Assembly: GCA_965277405.1 (NCBI GenBank)
Contig: OZ255726.1
Coordinates: 1,344,001 to 1,408,000, forward strand
Length of the DNA stretch: 64,000 nt
Origin: Gammaproteobacteria bacterium
GTDB lineage: Bacteria; Pseudomonadota; Gammaproteobacteria; G965277405
Reading direction: 5' to 3'
The translations under genes and the position numbers were made by a program. This document shows, piece after piece, positions 58,567 through 64,000 of the stretch. Each line of letters starts with the position of its first letter. Within the stretch, counting starts at the first letter, position 1. The notes beneath the pieces are model-generated. The model saw only the letters and a program-made list of their open reading frames with translations. It ran no database searches and was not told the origin of the DNA.

Positions 58567-58645
58567 CGATACTATGCTAACAGGAGATTGAAAATTTTTT
58601 ATGAAAAATGTTGGATAATATGTGGCTGCTAAGGCGCGGTTGCAC

Positions 58646-58788
58646 CGTCTTTTGTCAAATATACTTATGGGTTACGGCAATTGCTGTGTTGCATCCCTTG
58701 GCGGATATGCTACGGCATGCGCCAACGAATACATGCACCTTGCAATTGCAGGCAAAGTCGCTCCATCAGCGGCTTAATCAGAGTTTCC
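58646..58788 (+). mobile_element. Degenerate partial MITE (right half)
   Basis: GCTGTGTTGCATCCCTTGGCG...CTCCATCAGCGGCTTAATCAGAGTTTCC followed by CTAG. Confidence 0.7.
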
Positions 58789-58794
58789 CTAGCA

Positions 58795-59037
58795 TCATGA
58801 GCGACTAAAAAGCTGCACCAGCCAACACACACAGCCATAGCAGTGCAATAACAAGGTGCATACCAATACGGCAATAATAAGAGTAAAACAATATCCTATT
58901 GCTAGACTCAATAACGCCTCAACGACACTCCAAATACTCGTTAGCGGCCAAGGAATCCCTATTAGATAGATAAGCGGAAGCATTAACACAATAGCAATCG
59001 TATGAATATATTTATTCAGCAAAATATCAGTAAACAT
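58795..59037 (-). CDS. Hypothetical small hydrophobic protein (80 aa)
   Basis: ORF with two hydrophobic segments between two MITEs; no recognised motif. Confidence 0.3.
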   Translation of the reverse strand: MFTDILLNKYIHTIAIVLMLPLIYLIGIPWPLTSIWSVVEALLSLAIGYCFTLIIAVLVCTLLLHCYGCVCWLVQLFSRS

Positions 59038-59180: not shown

Positions 59181-59463
59181 GGGACCTCTGATTAACTCGC
59201 TGATGGAGCGAGTTTGCCTGCAATTGCTGATGATTGCAAAGCGCAAACCGCTAAGCGCATGCCGTAGCATATACGCCAAGGGATGCAACACAGCAAGCGC
59301 AGCAATTGCAGCAAACCGTTGTATATTCAACAGAAGGACGGGAAAAAACGCTGCGCTCACGTCGTTGCACTTGATAATACCACCAGTATTATCAAGTGCT
59401 GCGCCTAGTTATCATCAGCGTTTTTTCTCCGTCTCCCCCATCATGGAATTAATTAGAGATTCC
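59181..59463 (-). mobile_element. MITE copy, inverted orientation
   Basis: GGGACCTCTGATTAACTCGCTGATGG...CATGGAATTAATTAGAGATTCC followed by CTAA. Confidence 0.8.
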
Positions 59464-59593
59464 CTAAGGCAACTTGACCGACTCAACATCGCCAACGTTA
59501 TCTATACGGGCTGGCGCCTACGCTAGAGTCGATAATACTCACTACTTGATCGGTTAAGCAAAATTCTCACTAGGCTTGCAGGCAATTATGAGT

Positions 59594-59685
59594 AAAAAAA
59601 ACGCCACAGTAAACTGTGGCGTTCAATAGCATTTTATGATCTAAACCTTGTTAACGGAAAGCTCACATTTTCCAGAGTGCTATAT
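59594..59685 (-). ncRNA. Putative tracrRNA
   Basis: Divergent upstream of cas9; minus strand has an anti-repeat-like ATAGCACTCTGGAAAATGTGAGCTTTCCGTTAACAAG and terminator AACGCCACAG-TTTA-CTGTGGCGTT plus T run; TTGAAA-17bp-TTTAAT promoter just upstream. Confidence 0.7.
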
Positions 59686-59919
59686 TTTCTATTAAAACAT
59701 AAGATGTTGTATATTTCAAGTGGGACTTTGCATTAAAATAAGTAATTCAGCAATTTTTTTAAAATAAGGCAGATGCATTTATTGTGCGTGTTTTTATATT
59801 TGGCACATGAATTTACAAGAGGATCGAGTTAACATTATCGTAATCAGCAGACGATAGCACCATCTGGTCAAGCTAATTACGCCAGTTGGTTGGTATACAC
59901 ATTTATAAAGGAGAAAATA

Positions 59920-60045
59920 ATGAAAATACGTTTAGGCATAGATGTAGGAACAAACTCGCTGGGCTGGGCTGTACTTGAATTGGATGAAAAAAATGAAGTG
60001 ATCCGCACCATTGATGCTGGGGTGCGTATTTTTTCAGATGGCTGA
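59920..60045 (+). other. 41-aa ORF duplicating the Cas9 N-terminus (RuvC-I), with its own RBS
   Basis: MKIRLGIDVGTNSLGWAVLELDEKNEVIRTIDAGVRIFSDG*, preceded by AAGGAG; imperfect direct repeat of 60055-60218. Confidence 0.8.
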
Positions 60046-60092
60046 AACCTAGGTGTTGGTTGGTATACACATTATATTAAGGAGAAAACATA

Positions 60093-63000
60093 ATGAAATG
60101 GCGTTTAGGAATAGATTTAGGCACGAACTCGCTTGGCTGGGCTGTACTTGAATTGGATGAAAAAAATGAAGTGATCCGCATCATTGATGCTGGAGCCCGT
60201 ATTTTTTCAGATGGAAGAAATCCAAAAGATAAGCATTCAAATGCAGTAACAAGAAGAGAAGCGCGTGGTGCCAGGCGGAATCGAGGTCGCGGAAAAAATC
60301 GGCAAGCTCGTTTGATGCAAGAGCTTATATCCGTAGGCTTGATGCCGAGTGACGAGACAGCACGCAAAGCTTTAGAAGGAGGAAAAAACATTTCGCAGTT
60401 AGCAACAGACCCTTGGATTTTACGCTGCCGCGCCCTAAAAGAAGCAATATCCCTGCAGCAAATAGGCAGAGTTATTTTTCATCTAGGGCAAAGACGTGGT
60501 TTTAAATCCAATCGAAAAACAGACCGAGCTAATAATGAAAAAGGCAAAGTCAAAGATGCTATTGCTCGCACCAAAGCTGATTTAGCCCAGCAAGGTGCGA
60601 CAACTCTTGGTGAATTGTTTGGCAAACCGCGACTCGACGTCGCCATACAAAACGCGCAACTGGCAAAAGGCAGGCGCTTGCCGCAACCATTAGCTCGAGT
60701 ACGTAGTACGGGTCAGGGTGTCAAATTGCAATATGACTATTATCCCACCCGCGAACTTATCCTCGACGAATTCGAGCAAATATGGCAAAAGCAAGCAGAA
60801 TATCATGCTGAGACTTTAACGGATGATGCCTATGATATTATCCAACAAACCCTTGCTTTTCAATACCCGTTAAAGCCACAACCTATTGGCAAATGCACCT
60901 TGCTGCCAGAAGAGTTGAGACTTGCAAAGGCAATGCCGACTTTTCAGCGTTCGCGGGTGTATCAAGAAGTCAATAACCTGCGTATTTGCCCAATTGGCGG
61001 GAAGGAATATTCAATTACGCTCGAGCAACGAGATGCAATTGTTAAACGGCTGCTGCAGCCAACCAGCCAAAAAGGAACAGTAACGTTCAACCAGTTGAGA
61101 AAATTATTAAGCCTATCAGCTTACGATATATTTAATCTAGAAAGTGAAAATAGACCATACTTAGAAGGCGATAAAACAGCGGCTGTGATGATGCAAAAAG
61201 AACGTTGGGGAACTGCATGGCTTAAGCTGGATACACCTGCCCAAGATGAAATTATTGAAAAACTGCTAGAAGAAGAAAACGAAGCAGACTTGCTCACATG
61301 GCTACAGCAACAATATGGCTTTGATACAGTACAAGCAGAAGCTATTGCAGACGCCCCTATTCCAAATGGCTATGGCAATCTTTCTAAAAAAGCGGTCGAC
61401 TGCTTGCAACCTATATTGCAAGCTGAAGTCATTACTTATGCAAAAGCTGCAATACGAGTATTTGGCTCCCATAGTAATTTTGCAACAGGAGAACTTCATG
61501 ATTTGCACCTGCCATATTATGGCAAAATATTAGAACGCCATGTTGCTTTTGGCTCAGGTAAGCCAGGTGACAAAGATGAACAACGCTACGGTAAAATCGC
61601 TAACCCAACCGTCCACGTAGCGTTGAATCAAGTGCGGGCTGTGGTGAATGATTTAATCCGCCGTTTTAAAGCGCCACATCAAGTTGTTATAGAAGTTGCA
61701 CGCGACTTACCGCTTTCTGCCAAAGGAAAAGGTGAGTTGTCAAGTCAACAACAGACTAACAAAGAAGCAAATGAGAGTCGGAAAGCCCGTTTAGTTGACG
61801 AGTATGGCGTTGCCAACACCCATGAAAATCGGCTACGGTTGCGTTTATATGACGAAATGGAGGCAATGGCTAAGCAATGCATATATAGTGGCAGACAAAT
61901 AGGCTTACATGAACTATTTAGCCACGCTATAGAGATAGACCATATCCTTCCTTTTTCACAAAGTTTGGACGACAGCTTTGCCAACAAAGTAATGTGCACG
62001 CGGGAAGCGAATCGTGATAAAGGCAATAACAGCCCATACCAAGCGTTTAGTCACAGCCCAAATGGCTATAGCTGGGAGGACATTTGCAATAGGGTTAAAT
62101 CTTTACCAGACAAAAATAAAAATAAAAAAAATAAAAAAAACAATATAGGTAATAAACATTGGCGGTTTAACGCTGATGCTATGGAGCAATTTGCAGAGGA
62201 AGGTGGTTTTTTAGCGCGGCAACTTAATGACACAAAATATATTGCCAGATTAACAAAAAGCTATTTAGAAGTAATGTTTGGTGGGGCGCCAACAGCTGGA
62301 GGCAGCCAACGTGTTTGGGTGGTAGTAGGCAAGCTAACAGCAGATCTACGCTATGTATGGAATTTAGATAGCGTGTTATTGGGTCACGATATTGCTGTTT
62401 CAGCAGCACAAAAGAAAAACCGCAGCGACCACCGCCACCATGCCATTGATGCAATTGTGATTGGGCTCACAGATAGAAAACTTGTTAAAAAAGCAGCATT
62501 GATTGCACAAGAAAATGAAGATTTAGGAACACGGCTGTTTGCAAGAATGCCCTTACCATGGCATGGCTTTAAAGAACAAGTGCGAACAGTATTAGAAAAA
62601 GTAGTTGTCAGCCACAAACCAGACCATGGTTATCAAGGAGCTATGCTCGACGGTACTGCATATGGGATAATGAATAAAAGCAAAATTGAGTCTGACTTTA
62701 CAAAAGCAGTTTCTGTTGTAACCCGTAAGTCATTAGATGATAGTAAATTTTTTAAAGCGCATCCAGACCTAAAAAAAATACGCGACCCAGACATTAAGGC
62801 ATCGTTACTTGCTGCCACTCAAGGGTATGGCGGGAGTGAATTTAAGCATGCGTTGGTGCAAGCAGGTGAGGCGATGCAGCCACCAGTACGTCGCGTTCGC
62901 ATCATTAAAAACGAGACGATCATCCCAATTGTCGATTATAAAACGGCACAAGTCTATAAAGGCTATGAAAGTGGCAGCAATTATTGTTATGATATTTGGC

Positions 63001-63362
63001 AAAATGGAACTGGCAAATGGGATGGGGTGGTCGTGTCGACATATACAGCATATCAACGTGCAAAAATAGATCCACAATGGTGGCGCAAGCCAGTAGATGA
63101 TGATGGAAAACCGCTGATTATGCGCCTACGCAAAAATGACATGTTGCGGATTCAAGATGCAGGGCGTGATAAAATTGTACGCGTCGTAAAATTTACTAAG
63201 GGGGTTCTTGCTTTAGCTGAGCATTTTGAAGCAAACGTTGACGCCAGGAACAGGAGCAAAGACGACGAGTTGAAATATATTTTTAAGGCGCCTTCAGCAC
63301 TGCAAAAAGCAAACGCCATCCGCATCACGGTCAGTCCATCGGGATTGGTTAAACGGTATTGA
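60093..63362 (+). CDS. cas9: Type II-C CRISPR endonuclease Cas9 (1089 aa)
   Basis: RuvC-I LGIDLGTNSLGW, Arg-rich bridge helix, RRGFKSNRK, NPTVHVALNQ, IEVARD, HNH EIDHILPFS...NKV...NRDKGN, RQLNDT, DHRHHAIDA. Confidence 0.96.
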   Translation: MKWRLGIDLGTNSLGWAVLELDEKNEVIRIIDAGARIFSDGRNPKDKHSNAVTRREARGARRNRGRGKNRQARLMQELISVGLMPSDETARKALEGGKNISQLATDPWILRCRALKEAISLQQIGRVIFHLGQRRGFKSNRKTDRANNEKGKVKDAIARTKADLAQQGATTLGELFGKPRLDVAIQNAQLAKGRRLPQPLARVRSTGQGVKLQYDYYPTRELILDEFEQIWQKQAEYHAETLTDDAYDIIQQTLAFQYPLKPQPIGKCTLLPEELRLAKAMPTFQRSRVYQEVNNLRICPIGGKEYSITLEQRDAIVKRLLQPTSQKGTVTFNQLRKLLSLSAYDIFNLESENRPYLEGDKTAAVMMQKERWGTAWLKLDTPAQDEIIEKLLEEENEADLLTWLQQQYGFDTVQAEAIADAPIPNGYGNLSKKAVDCLQPILQAEVITYAKAAIRVFGSHSNFATGELHDLHLPYYGKILERHVAFGSGKPGDKDEQRYGKIANPTVHVALNQVRAVVNDLIRRFKAPHQVVIEVARDLPLSAKGKGELSSQQQTNKEANESRKARLVDEYGVANTHENRLRLRLYDEMEAMAKQCIYSGRQIGLHELFSHAIEIDHILPFSQSLDDSFANKVMCTREANRDKGNNSPYQAFSHSPNGYSWEDICNRVKSLPDKNKNKKNKKNNIGNKHWRFNADAMEQFAEEGGFLARQLNDTKYIARLTKSYLEVMFGGAPTAGGSQRVWVVVGKLTADLRYVWNLDSVLLGHDIAVSAAQKKNRSDHRHHAIDAIVIGLTDRKLVKKAALIAQENEDLGTRLFARMPLPWHGFKEQVRTVLEKVVVSHKPDHGYQGAMLDGTAYGIMNKSKIESDFTKAVSVVTRKSLDDSKFFKAHPDLKKIRDPDIKASLLAATQGYGGSEFKHALVQAGEAMQPPVRRVRIIKNETIIPIVDYKTAQVYKGYESGSNYCYDIWQNGTGKWDGVVVSTYTAYQRAKIDPQWWRKPVDDDGKPLIMRLRKNDMLRIQDAGRDKIVRVVKFTKGVLALAEHFEANVDARNRSKDDELKYIFKAPSALQKANAIRITVSPSGLVKRY

Positions 63363-63494: not shown

Positions 63495-64000
63495 GTGCAT
63501 AATCGGATTATAGAAATAACGAGCGACAGAGTGTATATCAGCGCTGAGCGTGGTTTTTTGAGAATGACTAGGCAAAAAGAATTACTTGGTAAAGTTGCGC
63601 TCGACGATATATCAGGGGTTATCATCCGTGGCTACGGGGCTACAATATCTGCGAATATTTGTGCACATCTTGCTGCATCTCATGTACCAATTATAATTTG
63701 CGGCAGTGATCAACTGCCAGCAAGCGTAGTATGGCCAATTAATGGGAATTTTCAGCAAGGTATTCATATGCAGGCTCAGGCAGATGCTAAAAAGCCGTTG
63801 TGTAAGAGACTTTGGTCAGCATTGGTGCAAGCAAAAATTACCAATCAAGCGTTGGTTCTTGGCTACGATGGCAAAGAAAATGCAGACGTATTAGCAATGG
63901 CAGCGCGGGTAAAATCAGGCGATGCTGATAATGTAGAGGCACAAGCAGCAAGACGATATTGGAAACGTCTACTAGGTAGTGATTTTAAACGTGACCGGCA
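63495..64000 (+). CDS. cas1: CRISPR-associated endonuclease Cas1, partial (runs off the window end)
   Basis: Manual translation from GTG: MHNRIIEITSDRVYISAERGFL...VALDDI...LWSALVQAKITNQA...VKSGDADNVEAQAARRYW. Confidence 0.9.
   Translation, partial: MHNRIIEITSDRVYISAERGFLRMTRQKELLGKVALDDISGVIIRGYGATISANICAHLAASHVPIIICGSDQLPASVVWPINGNFQQGIHMQAQADAKKPLCKRLWSALVQAKITNQALVLGYDGKENADVLAMAARVKSGDADNVEAQAARRYWKRLLGSDFKRDR

What the first reader, a model, noticed from the sequence alone, without database searches (positions are those of the whole stretch)
59885..60218. Stand-alone 41-aa Cas9 RuvC-I peptide gene with a duplicated promoter/RBS directly in front of cas9
Seen: 59885-60045 is an imperfect direct repeat of 60055-60218. 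Both carry GTTGGTTGGTATACACATT (extended -10-like), an AAGGAG RBS and the first 41 Cas9 codons. The upstream copy stops (TGA versus AGA) right after RuvC-I, before the bridge helix. Of 10 differing sense codons, 6 are synonymous and 4 are substitutions (W3I, L9V, I30T, A35V); the catalytic Asp is kept and there are no indels. Inference: the copies diverged under coding selection rather than by neutral decay. Either a different cas9 allele replaced the resident one by recombining in just behind its 5' end, or the peptide is expressed and acts as a decoy, dominant-negative/split RuvC piece or translational leader. I know of no described type II system with such a mini-Cas9 leader.
Basis: partly seen in the sequence, partly recalled or inferred. 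Interest (0 to 1): 0.75.

Follow-up and report, generated by a model that had tools for sequence, protein, structure and literature searches.

The report
Leftover cas9 start before cas9
Directly in front of an intact cas9 gene sits a diverged second copy of its ribosome-binding site and first 41 codons, which is real but most likely a recombination leftover rather than a new CRISPR component.

Summary
Window 59885-60054 and 60055-60227 are a head-to-tail repeat, about 89-90% identical. Each unit carries the same 19-nt block, an AAGGAG site and the first 41 cas9 codons. The upstream copy ends in TGA where cas9 has AGA.

It is not an assembly chimera. Contigs from three sequencing runs bridge the junction without a difference. 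A second strain encodes the same 41-aa ORF.

The locus is a complete type II-C system: tracrRNA on the minus strand, cas9, cas1, cas2 and a 104-repeat array.

The tandem fragment looks lineage-specific. None was found next to cas9 in 103 other genomes with a Cas9 N-terminus match, among 800 searched. The nearest relative has one copy.

The upstream copy carries two residues absent from 119 homologues (I3, T30) and a stop at an invariant Arg. A 46-nt identical core points to gene conversion. The leader RNA shows no special fold.

Best reading: a cas9 5' remnant from a recombination joining two diverged alleles, possibly co-transcribed as an upstream ORF. A dedicated peptide function is unsupported but not excluded. 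Expression could not be tested.

The parts
59590..59700 (-). Candidate tracrRNA. The anti-repeat lies at about 59650-59686; a terminator hairpin at 59624-59599 is followed by a T run.
   Evidence: The plus strand at 59661-59684 matches 22 of 24 nt of the CRISPR repeat in its GTTG orientation, so the minus-strand RNA is complementary to it. A terminator-like site was found on the minus strand. The fold has z -3.2, and 0 of 200 shuffles fold as well. Sequence and position are conserved upstream of cas9 in L012, and partly in G742. The ends of the RNA are inferred.
59701..59884 (.). Unique AT-rich spacer between the tracrRNA and the first repeat unit. It presumably holds the tracrRNA promoter and perhaps the real cas9 promoter.
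   Evidence: It has no other copy in the genome. It holds no third degenerate copy of the unit. It has no repeat-like or guide-like match. The region 59585-59884, which includes this spacer, has GC 0.33. One promoter-like site lies at 59812-59841 on the plus strand, 9 of 12 matches; this is a consensus match only.
59885..60054 (+). Upstream repeat unit (copy 1): the 19-nt block, AAGGAG at 59908-59913, a 41-codon ORF, and a 9-12-nt tail at the joint.
59920..60045 (+). 41-codon ORF, a fragment of the Cas9 RuvC-I motif, ending in TGA.
   Evidence: Translation and codon table. It matches positions 2-34 of the Cas9 model TIGR01865 at E 2e-10, below the family cut-off. I3 and T30 are not seen in 119 homologues.
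59962..60007 (+). 46-nt core of copy 1, identical to 60135-60180 in copy 2. Probably a gene-conversion tract.
   Evidence: The permutation test for a run this long gives p = 0.011.
60055..60227 (+). Downstream repeat unit (copy 2): the 19-nt block, AAGGAG at 60079-60084, and the start of the working cas9.
60093..63362 (+). cas9, 1089 aa, intact.
   Evidence: Pfam HNH_4, RuvC_III and Cas9_a. NCBIfam TIGR01865 at 647.9 bits, cut-off 100. The closest relatives are 60-70% identical over residues 1-300.
63495..64000 (+). cas1, which runs off the window. In the genome cas1 continues to window coordinate 64433, cas2 is at 64435-64779, and an array of 104 repeats of 36 nt lies at 64852-71684.
   Evidence: Pfam Cas_Cas1. 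cas1_NMENI at 235.8 bits and cas2 at 63.7 bits. ORFs. Array.

Best explanation
The 41-codon ORF is a truncated 5' remnant of a cas9 allele, lying in tandem with the intact cas9 of a working type II-C locus.

Most likely origin (inferred). A recombination event joined two cas9 5' ends that were already about 11-17% diverged. One crossover was homologous and one illegitimate, and the illegitimate joint lies right after codon 41-43. This left the displaced ribosome-binding site and first 41 codons in front of the incoming or retained gene. Since then, short gene-conversion tracts between the two copies have partly homogenised them.

Present-day effect (inferred). Because the remnant keeps its AAGGAG site and ATG, any transcript that starts upstream of it carries a translatable 41-codon upstream ORF. 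That ORF ends 47 nt before the cas9 ATG, and cas9 is then translated from its own AAGGAG site. The peptide itself has no dedicated role.

Shown: the structure, its reality in DNA, its presence in two strains, that it was not found in the other genomes searched, the residues foreign to the family, and the identical core.

Inferred: the order of events, transcription, translation, and lack of function.
For: Structure and reality of the tandem repeat.

The locus is otherwise a standard, complete type II-C system.

The fragment is lineage-specific:
- The nearest cas9 locus in hand (L012, 60% aa) has the same tracrRNA-cas9 layout but one copy, with about 85 nt between anti-repeat and ATG.
- A 50-position N-terminal profile found the window's own fragment as a positive control (E 2.4e-19).
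- It found no second adjacent match in any of 43 other matching genomes among 400 of the window's class.
- It found none in any of 60 matching genomes among 401 of another class.
- Among 5.8 billion protein clusters, the only protein of 22-72 aa sharing words with the peptide is the other strain's copy.

Copy 1 no longer obeys Cas9 constraints:
- Position 3 is W in 103, Y in 15 and L in 1 of 119 homologues; copy 1 has I.
- Position 30 is L in 95, I in 14, V in 7 and M in 1 among the four commonest residues printed, none of them T; copy 1 has T.
- Arg42 is 119 of 119; copy 1 has a stop.

Divergence looks pre-existing rather than in place. pS is 0.27 against pN 0.058. Yet only 1 substitution and 2 small indels lie in the 35-38 nt before the ATG. 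In-place neutral decay of copy 1 gave the observed codon pattern in only 0.8-2.1% of simulations, against 39-82% when both lineages are constrained.

Conversion is active. The 46-nt identical run has p = 0.011. Three of the four amino-acid differences to the second strain fall inside that core (Fisher p = 0.0014).

cas9 5' remnants do arise as scars. G742 keeps 18 codons (MAYRLGLDIGANSIGWCA) next to a tracrRNA-like stretch, and these run into an unrelated gene.

No regulatory design is visible. The 217-nt leader has z +0.75, and 158 of 200 shuffles fold at least as well.
Against: - Pairwise pN/pS of 0.22, an intact frame, an intact AAGGAG site and a perfectly kept 19-nt block are also what a selected small gene would show.
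- The ORF is open and 41 aa long in both strains seen.
- No donor allele was found. No Cas9 between 70% and 99% identity over residues 1-300 is in the protein collection. The 'two alleles' step therefore rests on divergence levels alone, from only 13 differences.
- If the joining was recent, I3 and T30 must already have been in a working allele. That sits uneasily with 0 of 119 homologues.
- The three inter-strain differences in the core cannot be explained by one simple conversion event.
- Expression was not tested at all.
Confidence: 0.62

Rival explanations
1. In-place tandem duplication of about 170 nt, by slippage or unequal exchange at short repeats. It was kept because the extra ribosome-binding or promoter-proximal unit or the longer leader raises or stabilises cas9 expression. 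The copies then diverged, with occasional gene conversion.
For: The two units abut head to tail with nothing between them. The 19-nt block is identical in both. Conversion is evident. Other two-copy tandem duplications of 100-300 nt exist in this genome, for example 102 nt twice at 98% identity at G000:C1:969251.
Against: Synonymous divergence of 0.27 overall, and higher outside the core, would need a long time. Over that time a neutral or weakly useful 170-nt repeat should have been deleted or damaged. The neutral-decay model fits poorly (0.8-2.1%). The joint carries about 5 nt (TAGGT) that match neither flank. A promoter within the unit is not shown.
Confidence: 0.2
2. The ORF is a functional small gene. 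Either it is a cis-acting upstream ORF that tunes cas9 translation or mRNA stability, or the 41-aa RuvC-I peptide acts in trans as a decoy, an inhibitor of Cas9 folding, or bait for an anti-CRISPR.
For: A strong AAGGAG site lies 6 nt before the ATG. The ORF is open in two strains. pN/pS is 0.22 and Asp8 is kept. The 19-nt upstream block is perfectly kept.
Against: It was not found beside cas9 in 103 other genomes with a Cas9 N-terminus match, nor in 8 other loci checked by self-search. Two of its four substitutions are foreign to the family at structurally conserved positions, which argues against native-like docking. The one difference between the strains is non-synonymous (R29C). There is no attenuator-like structure. 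The end of the ORF coincides with the end of homology, as expected of a truncation. Gene conversion from cas9 can keep it open without selection.
Confidence: 0.13
3. Assembly chimera of two strains or a collapsed repeat: the tandem arrangement does not exist in any one molecule.
For: Strain mixtures are visible in the runs, for example the minor variant contig in X2.
Against: Contigs built from reads in three runs cross the joint, linking copy-1-specific to copy-2-specific bases with 0 differences. The genome is a single 2.17-Mb contig. A second assembly encodes both the peptide and Cas9. The runs are of one study and may include the source data, so independence is limited.
Confidence: 0.02

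Closest known systems
Type II-C CRISPR-Cas9 loci of the Neisseria meningitidis kind
   Same: The locus holds cas9, cas1 and cas2 only, with Cas1 of the NMENI subtype. Repeats are 36 nt and spacers 30 nt. A tracrRNA with anti-repeat and terminator lies beside cas9. The repeat ends in GTGCTATACT. That this resembles the in-repeat promoters described for Neisseria type II-C arrays is recalled, not tested; a search listing only was seen.
   Different: No described II-C locus known to me, or found in my searches, has a second copy of the ribosome-binding site and cas9 start in tandem before cas9.
Gene remnants left by recombination or deletion, for example the 18-codon cas9 start in genome G742
   Same: A cas9 5' end with its upstream tracrRNA-like sequence survives after the rest was removed, and the reading frame ends where homology ends. 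One-sided homologous plus illegitimate recombination during DNA uptake is an established way to create such joints. For PMC3240628 I saw the search listing and the start of the abstract only.
   Different: In G742 no cas9 follows the remnant. Here an intact, diverged cas9 follows at once, so the remnant forms a tandem repeat with it.
Displaced partial gene copies beside integrated elements, such as tRNA gene fragments
   Same: A diverged partial copy of a gene end sits as a direct repeat of the functional end. For PMC9897764 I saw the title and start of the abstract in a search listing only.
   Different: Such fragments flank an inserted element. Here nothing lies between the two copies, and no integrase is adjacent in the window. 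A resolvase lies next to the tracrRNA only in the relative L012.
Leader peptides and upstream ORFs of attenuators (trpL, ermCL type; recalled)
   Same: A short ORF with its own ribosome-binding site lies in the 5' leader of the regulated gene.
   Different: The leader has no alternative hairpins or terminator (z +0.75). It is not conserved in relatives. The ORF is a copy of the downstream gene's own start.
Cas9 autoregulation through a long tracrRNA form at the cas9 promoter in Streptococcus pyogenes
   Same: Regulatory action sits in the tracrRNA-cas9 intergenic region. I saw the search listing and start of abstract only for 10.1101/2020.05.21.102756, and the listing only for PMC11417352.
   Different: No repeat-like or guide-like sequence was found in 59690-59884, and no exact match of 10 nt or more to the duplicated units. 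The tracrRNA here points away from cas9.

Membership tests
Type II-C CRISPR-Cas system | Cas9 with HNH and split RuvC domains | tested here: met
   Pfam HNH_4, RuvC_III and Cas9_a. TIGR01865 at 647.9 bits against a cut-off of 100.
Type II-C CRISPR-Cas system | Only cas1 and cas2 as adaptation genes, with no csn2 or cas4 | tested here: met
   cas1_NMENI and cas2 follow cas9. Only 72 nt lie between cas2 and the array. No other ORF of 100 aa or more lies between cas9 and the array.
Type II-C CRISPR-Cas system | CRISPR array and a tracrRNA with an anti-repeat | tested here: met
   104 repeats of 36 nt. Anti-repeat match of 22 of 24 nt plus a terminator. Conserved in L012. The RNA itself was not observed.
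Gene remnant or pseudogene fragment | Homologous to part of a parent gene and truncated | tested here: met
   37 of 41 residues are identical to the Cas9 N-terminus. A stop stands at the invariant Arg42.
Gene remnant or pseudogene fragment | Loss of family constraints (substitutions at conserved positions) | tested here: met
   I3 and T30 are each 0 of 119 homologues.
Gene remnant or pseudogene fragment | Non-synonymous to synonymous ratio near 1, frame-disrupting changes | tested here: not met
   pN/pS is 0.22 and there are no indels in 41 codons. This can be explained by divergence before the joining and by gene conversion, but it is the main point against a plain pseudogene.
Gene remnant or pseudogene fragment | Not conserved as a separate gene in relatives | tested here: met
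   0 of 43 and 0 of 60 other matching genomes have an adjacent second N-terminal match. L012 has a single copy. Only very close strains share it.
Leader-peptide attenuator or regulatory upstream ORF | Short translated ORF upstream of the regulated gene | tested here: inconclusive
   The ORF and the AAGGAG site are present. Translation was not testable.
Leader-peptide attenuator or regulatory upstream ORF | Alternative RNA structures or a terminator between the ORF and the gene | tested here: not met
   Fold of 59904-60120 has z +0.75. No terminator-like site on the plus strand in 59400-60400.
Stand-alone small protein family | Homologues of similar length in other organisms | tested here: not met
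   Only the other strain's copy among proteins of 22-72 aa. In the library of representatives, 34 of 148 further listed hits are 100 aa or shorter. All are 71% identical or less to the peptide. They look like cut or frameshifted cas9 starts, but their context could not be seen.

The most novel reading that the evidence does not exclude
The 41-codon copy of the Cas9 start is a maintained, translated upstream ORF. Either its translation sets how much Cas9 is made from long transcripts, or the RuvC-I peptide binds something that normally recognises the Cas9 N-terminus, such as an anti-CRISPR or a protease. It would then be a self-derived regulator of a type II system, kept similar to cas9 by gene conversion.
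Probability: 0.1. Interest if true: 0.75.

Novelty: new member of a known kind. Interest (0 to 1): 0.3.

Why it matters
As a scar, it is a small but clear record of recombination at a CRISPR-Cas locus. It shows a breakpoint inside the cas9 5' end and later gene conversion between the remnant and the working gene. It also warns annotators that a 'mini-Cas9' ORF with a good ribosome-binding site can be a leftover.

It would matter more if the upstream ORF proved to modulate Cas9 dosage. Control of cas9 expression in type II-C systems is poorly known, and a self-derived leader would be a new kind of control. The present evidence does not point that way.

Tried and rejected
- **Third, older copy upstream (59690-59884).** Local alignment to either unit was no better than shuffles (203 of 300 and 267 of 300 shuffles scored at least as well).
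- **Autoregulatory guide or stand-alone repeat in the spacer.** No significant repeat-like match and no shared exact word of 10 nt or more with the units.
- **Structured leader.** Rejected.
- **Rfam.** One weak hit, ncS54 at 28.2 bits against a gathering score of 43, on the tracrRNA terminator. Taken as chance.
- **Survey with a full-length Cas9 profile.** It failed its own positive control, because only 2 candidates per genome were scored and the window's fragment was not listed. It was replaced by the 50-position N-terminal profile. In those surveys at most 17 candidates per genome were scored, and G247 was not scored, so weak fragments could be missed.
- **Self-search of other loci.** My motif pattern failed on cas9 frames in L003, L005, L007, L016, L019, L020 and L022, so only 8 non-window loci were checked there.
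- **Donor allele.** None found. The next Cas9 after the 99% one is 70% identical over residues 1-300. Genome and metagenome scans gave 60% at best.
- **Expression.** No RNA holder was listed for the stretch. This says nothing either way.
- **Parts of the stretch without cover in run X3, and contig depths.** See Noticed in passing. By the tool's own caveats these are not evidence.
- **ComEC.** A homologue is present, but the family also hits 10 of 14 control genomes, so it does not bear on natural transformation.
- **ORF after the array.** The 83-aa ORF gave no Pfam family. My first guess of a transposase start was dropped.
- **Other two-copy tandem repeats in the genome.** They are internal coding repeats or lie at a gene's 3' end, not at gene starts.
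- **Literature.** Searches listed no paper describing a tandem cas9 5' fragment. I saw listings and starts of abstracts only, read no full text, and supplements were closed.
- **Not run.** No structure or complex prediction was run, because I do not claim binding.
Full report
**What is there.**

Reading 59500-60500 and three independent repeat finders confirm a head-to-tail direct repeat:
- Unit 1 is 59885-60054 and unit 2 is 60055-60227.
- Identity is 88% without gaps, 90% by TRF with period 173, and 89.2% over 166 nt by blastn.
- The unit occurs nowhere else in the 2.17-Mb genome.

Each unit starts with the identical 19-nt block GTTGGTTGGTATACACATT. AAGGAG follows at 59908-59913 and at 60079-60084. 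ATG follows at 59920 and at 60093.

Unit 2 is the start of a 1089-aa cas9 (60093-63362). It carries HNH_4, RuvC_III and Cas9_a domains and scores 648 bits on TIGR01865.

Unit 1 encodes 41 codons and then TGA (60043-60045) where cas9 has AGA.
- 13 nt differences in 41 codons.
- 6 synonymous codon differences.
- 4 replacements: I3/W, V9/L, T30/I and V35/A (copy 1/copy 2).
- Asp8 is kept.
- No indel in the coding part.

Three details need correcting:
- The 35-38 nt before the ATG carry two small indels.
- A promoter inside the unit is not shown. The consensus scan did not call the TGGTATACA block, and only about 35 nt upstream of the ATG are duplicated.
- Similarity after Gly41 is marginal, so the stop may simply lie at the recombination joint.

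**It is real DNA.**

The genome is one contig. One search found three runs of one study that hold the stretch. When laid on 59300-60900, each run has a read-derived contig that crosses the joint with no difference. Each of these contigs runs from copy-1-specific bases to copy-2-specific bases (X1 59978-60164, X2 59978-60160, X3 59978-60108). These runs may include the source data, so they check the assembly rather than replicate it.

Independent support comes from the protein collection:
- A 41-aa protein differs from the window's peptide only by R29C.
- A 1089-aa Cas9 differs by E23D, I28S and V837A.
- Both are reported with a longest contig of 387,304 nt.
- The E23D/I28S variant also appears as a minor contig in run X2, in copy-2 context.

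**Context.**

The locus is a complete type II-C system:
- The plus strand at 59661-59684 matches 22 of 24 nt of the CRISPR repeat in its GTTG orientation.
- A strong terminator lies on the minus strand at 59624-59599.
- The 116-nt minus-strand RNA folds with z -3.2.

This is therefore a tracrRNA pointing away from cas9. Its sequence and position recur upstream of cas9 in the nearest relative, L012.

cas1 (NMENI subtype) and cas2 follow cas9. Then comes an array of 104 repeats of 36 nt with 30-nt spacers. Between the tracrRNA and unit 1 lie about 185 nt of unique AT-rich sequence. This stretch holds no third copy and no repeat-like or guide-like match.

**Is it found elsewhere?**

The organism has no close relative among the genomes held. 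All 60 'relatives' belong to other families.

The nearest cas9 locus is L012, a metagenome-assembled contig with 60% identity. It has the same tracrRNA-cas9 layout with a single copy and about 85 nt between anti-repeat and ATG.

A first survey with a full-length Cas9 profile missed the window's own fragment and was discarded. A 50-position N-terminal profile found that fragment as a positive control (E 2.4e-19). Its results were:
- In 400 genomes of the window's class, 43 other genomes matched. None had two matches near each other; the closest same-contig pairs are 483 kb and 847 kb apart.
- In 401 genomes of the class of L012's genome, 60 matched. Again none had adjacent matches.

Among 5.8 billion protein clusters, the only protein of 22-72 aa sharing words with the peptide is the other strain's copy.

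A full HMMER scan of 1.84 billion representatives gave 393 hits at E of 0.001 or better. Only that same protein was below 1e-10. Of the 148 further hits listed, 34 are 100 aa or shorter. All are 71% identical or less to the peptide. They read like cut or frameshifted cas9 starts, but their context could not be seen.

One genome, G742, holds an 18-codon cas9 start beside a tracrRNA-like stretch, running straight into an unrelated gene. This shows that cas9 5' remnants do survive as scars.

**What the substitutions say.**

I compared both copies against 119 homologues:
- Position 3 is W, Y or L, never I. Copy 1 has I.
- Position 30 is L, I, V or M among the four commonest residues printed, none of them T. 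Copy 1 has T.
- Arg42 is invariant. Copy 1 has a stop.
- V9 and V35 in copy 1, and A35 in cas9, are all residues the family allows.

Copy 1 has therefore left the constraints of a Cas9 RuvC-I strand. That argues against a native-like 'split' or 'decoy' piece.

The pairwise pN/pS is nevertheless 0.22. In simulations, in-place duplication followed by neutral decay of copy 1 gave the observed pattern in only 0.8-2.1% of runs. The figure was 17% for half-relaxed constraint and 39-82% when both lineages were constrained. The criterion was chosen after seeing the data, and conversion was not modelled.

Such constraint is expected without any peptide function if the two copies diverged as working alleles in different strains before being joined. 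The very low change in the 35 nt before the ATG (1 substitution), beside a synonymous divergence of 0.27, points the same way.

**Gene conversion.**

The differences are not spread evenly. A 46-nt run (59962-60007 and 60135-60180) is identical, with permutation p = 0.011. Three of the four amino-acid differences to the second strain fall inside that run (Fisher p = 0.0014).

The simplest reading is that the core was homogenised recently in the window's lineage. One simple event does not reproduce the pattern, so this remains partly unexplained. Conversion from the working gene also offers a neutral way to keep the fragment open.

**How it most likely works.**

Any transcript that begins upstream of 59908 carries a well-placed ribosome-binding site and a 41-codon ORF. 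That ORF ends 47 nt before the cas9 ATG, and cas9 has its own AAGGAG site. The 217-nt leader has no structure beyond shuffles (z +0.75), and no terminator lies on the plus strand. I therefore expect read-through into cas9, with translation of the small ORF as a by-product.

All of this is inference, because no RNA run was listed.

**Verdict.**

The 'replacement scar' alternative is the best supported at about 0.6. In-place duplication is about 0.2. A functional peptide or leader is about 0.1-0.15. An artefact is about 0.02.

The feature was not found in the other genomes searched. No description turned up in four literature searches, for which I saw listings and starts of abstracts only. As a kind of thing, a gene remnant at a recombination joint, it is ordinary.

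As a result, cluster members, earlier findings and the DNA of the second strain could not be seen.

Noticed in passing
window 59190-59480 (and a partial, more diverged relative at 58600-58810): A dispersed repeat of about 280 nt directly left of the tracrRNA has 354 blastn hits in the 2.17-Mb genome, with the best copies 91-93% identical. In the runs it shows very high summed contig depth. It looks like a very abundant miniature mobile or intergenic repeat, and could serve as a homology anchor for recombination at this locus.
   Followed up: partly
G000:C1:2053063-2058801 (L011 5064-10802): A second, complete type II locus lies in the same genome. It has a cas9 of 1044 aa (32% identical over the first 300 aa), a 304-aa and a 119-aa ORF where cas1 and cas2 would lie (not checked against a family), and an array of about 19 repeats with a different 36-nt repeat. 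No N-terminal fragment lies beside it.
   Followed up: partly
array 1, spacer 96 (window coordinates about 71150) and G000:C1:2058020-2058047: One spacer of the large array matches 27 of 28 nt inside the second locus's array, so the two systems seem to hold a spacer from the same target. Spacer 22 has an exact 22-nt match at G000:C1:1943879-1943900, outside any array.
   Followed up: no
run X3 on window 59978-60504: In X3 a contig (60079-60180, depth 19.3) runs from copy-2-specific sequence through the shared core. It then splits into the joint contig (59978-60108, depth 5.57) and the cas9 contig (60151-60504, depth 13.6). Nothing was laid on 59516-59947. This would fit strains whose upstream copy has a copy-2-like first half, or strains without the duplication. 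The tool warns that contig depths and holes prove nothing.
   Followed up: no
Cas9 residues 23 and 28 and peptide residue 29 (window 60159-60176 and 60004-60006): Three of the four amino-acid differences between the two strains lie in the 46-nt core shared by the two copies. This may be gene conversion in one lineage or a local hot spot. The region is also the most variable part of the N-terminus in the family.
   Followed up: partly
L052 about 1400-1560 (G742:C78): A cas9 remnant of 18 codons lies beside a tracrRNA-like stretch and runs into an unrelated gene on the other strand. This is a deleted type II locus.
   Followed up: partly
L012 943-1482: In the nearest relative, a serine recombinase (Pfam Resolvase plus HTH_7) lies directly beside the tracrRNA. 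This hints that this cas9 clade travels on mobile DNA. Its closest Cas9 homologues carry names from Alphaproteobacteria such as Sneathiella, Emcibacter, Devosia and Rhizobiaceae.
   Followed up: partly
G000:C1:599716-622236 and other places: The genome holds very long tandem arrays with periods of 276-288 nt, for example about 80 copies over 22.5 kb. These are probably repeat domains of giant surface proteins; that was not checked.
   Followed up: no
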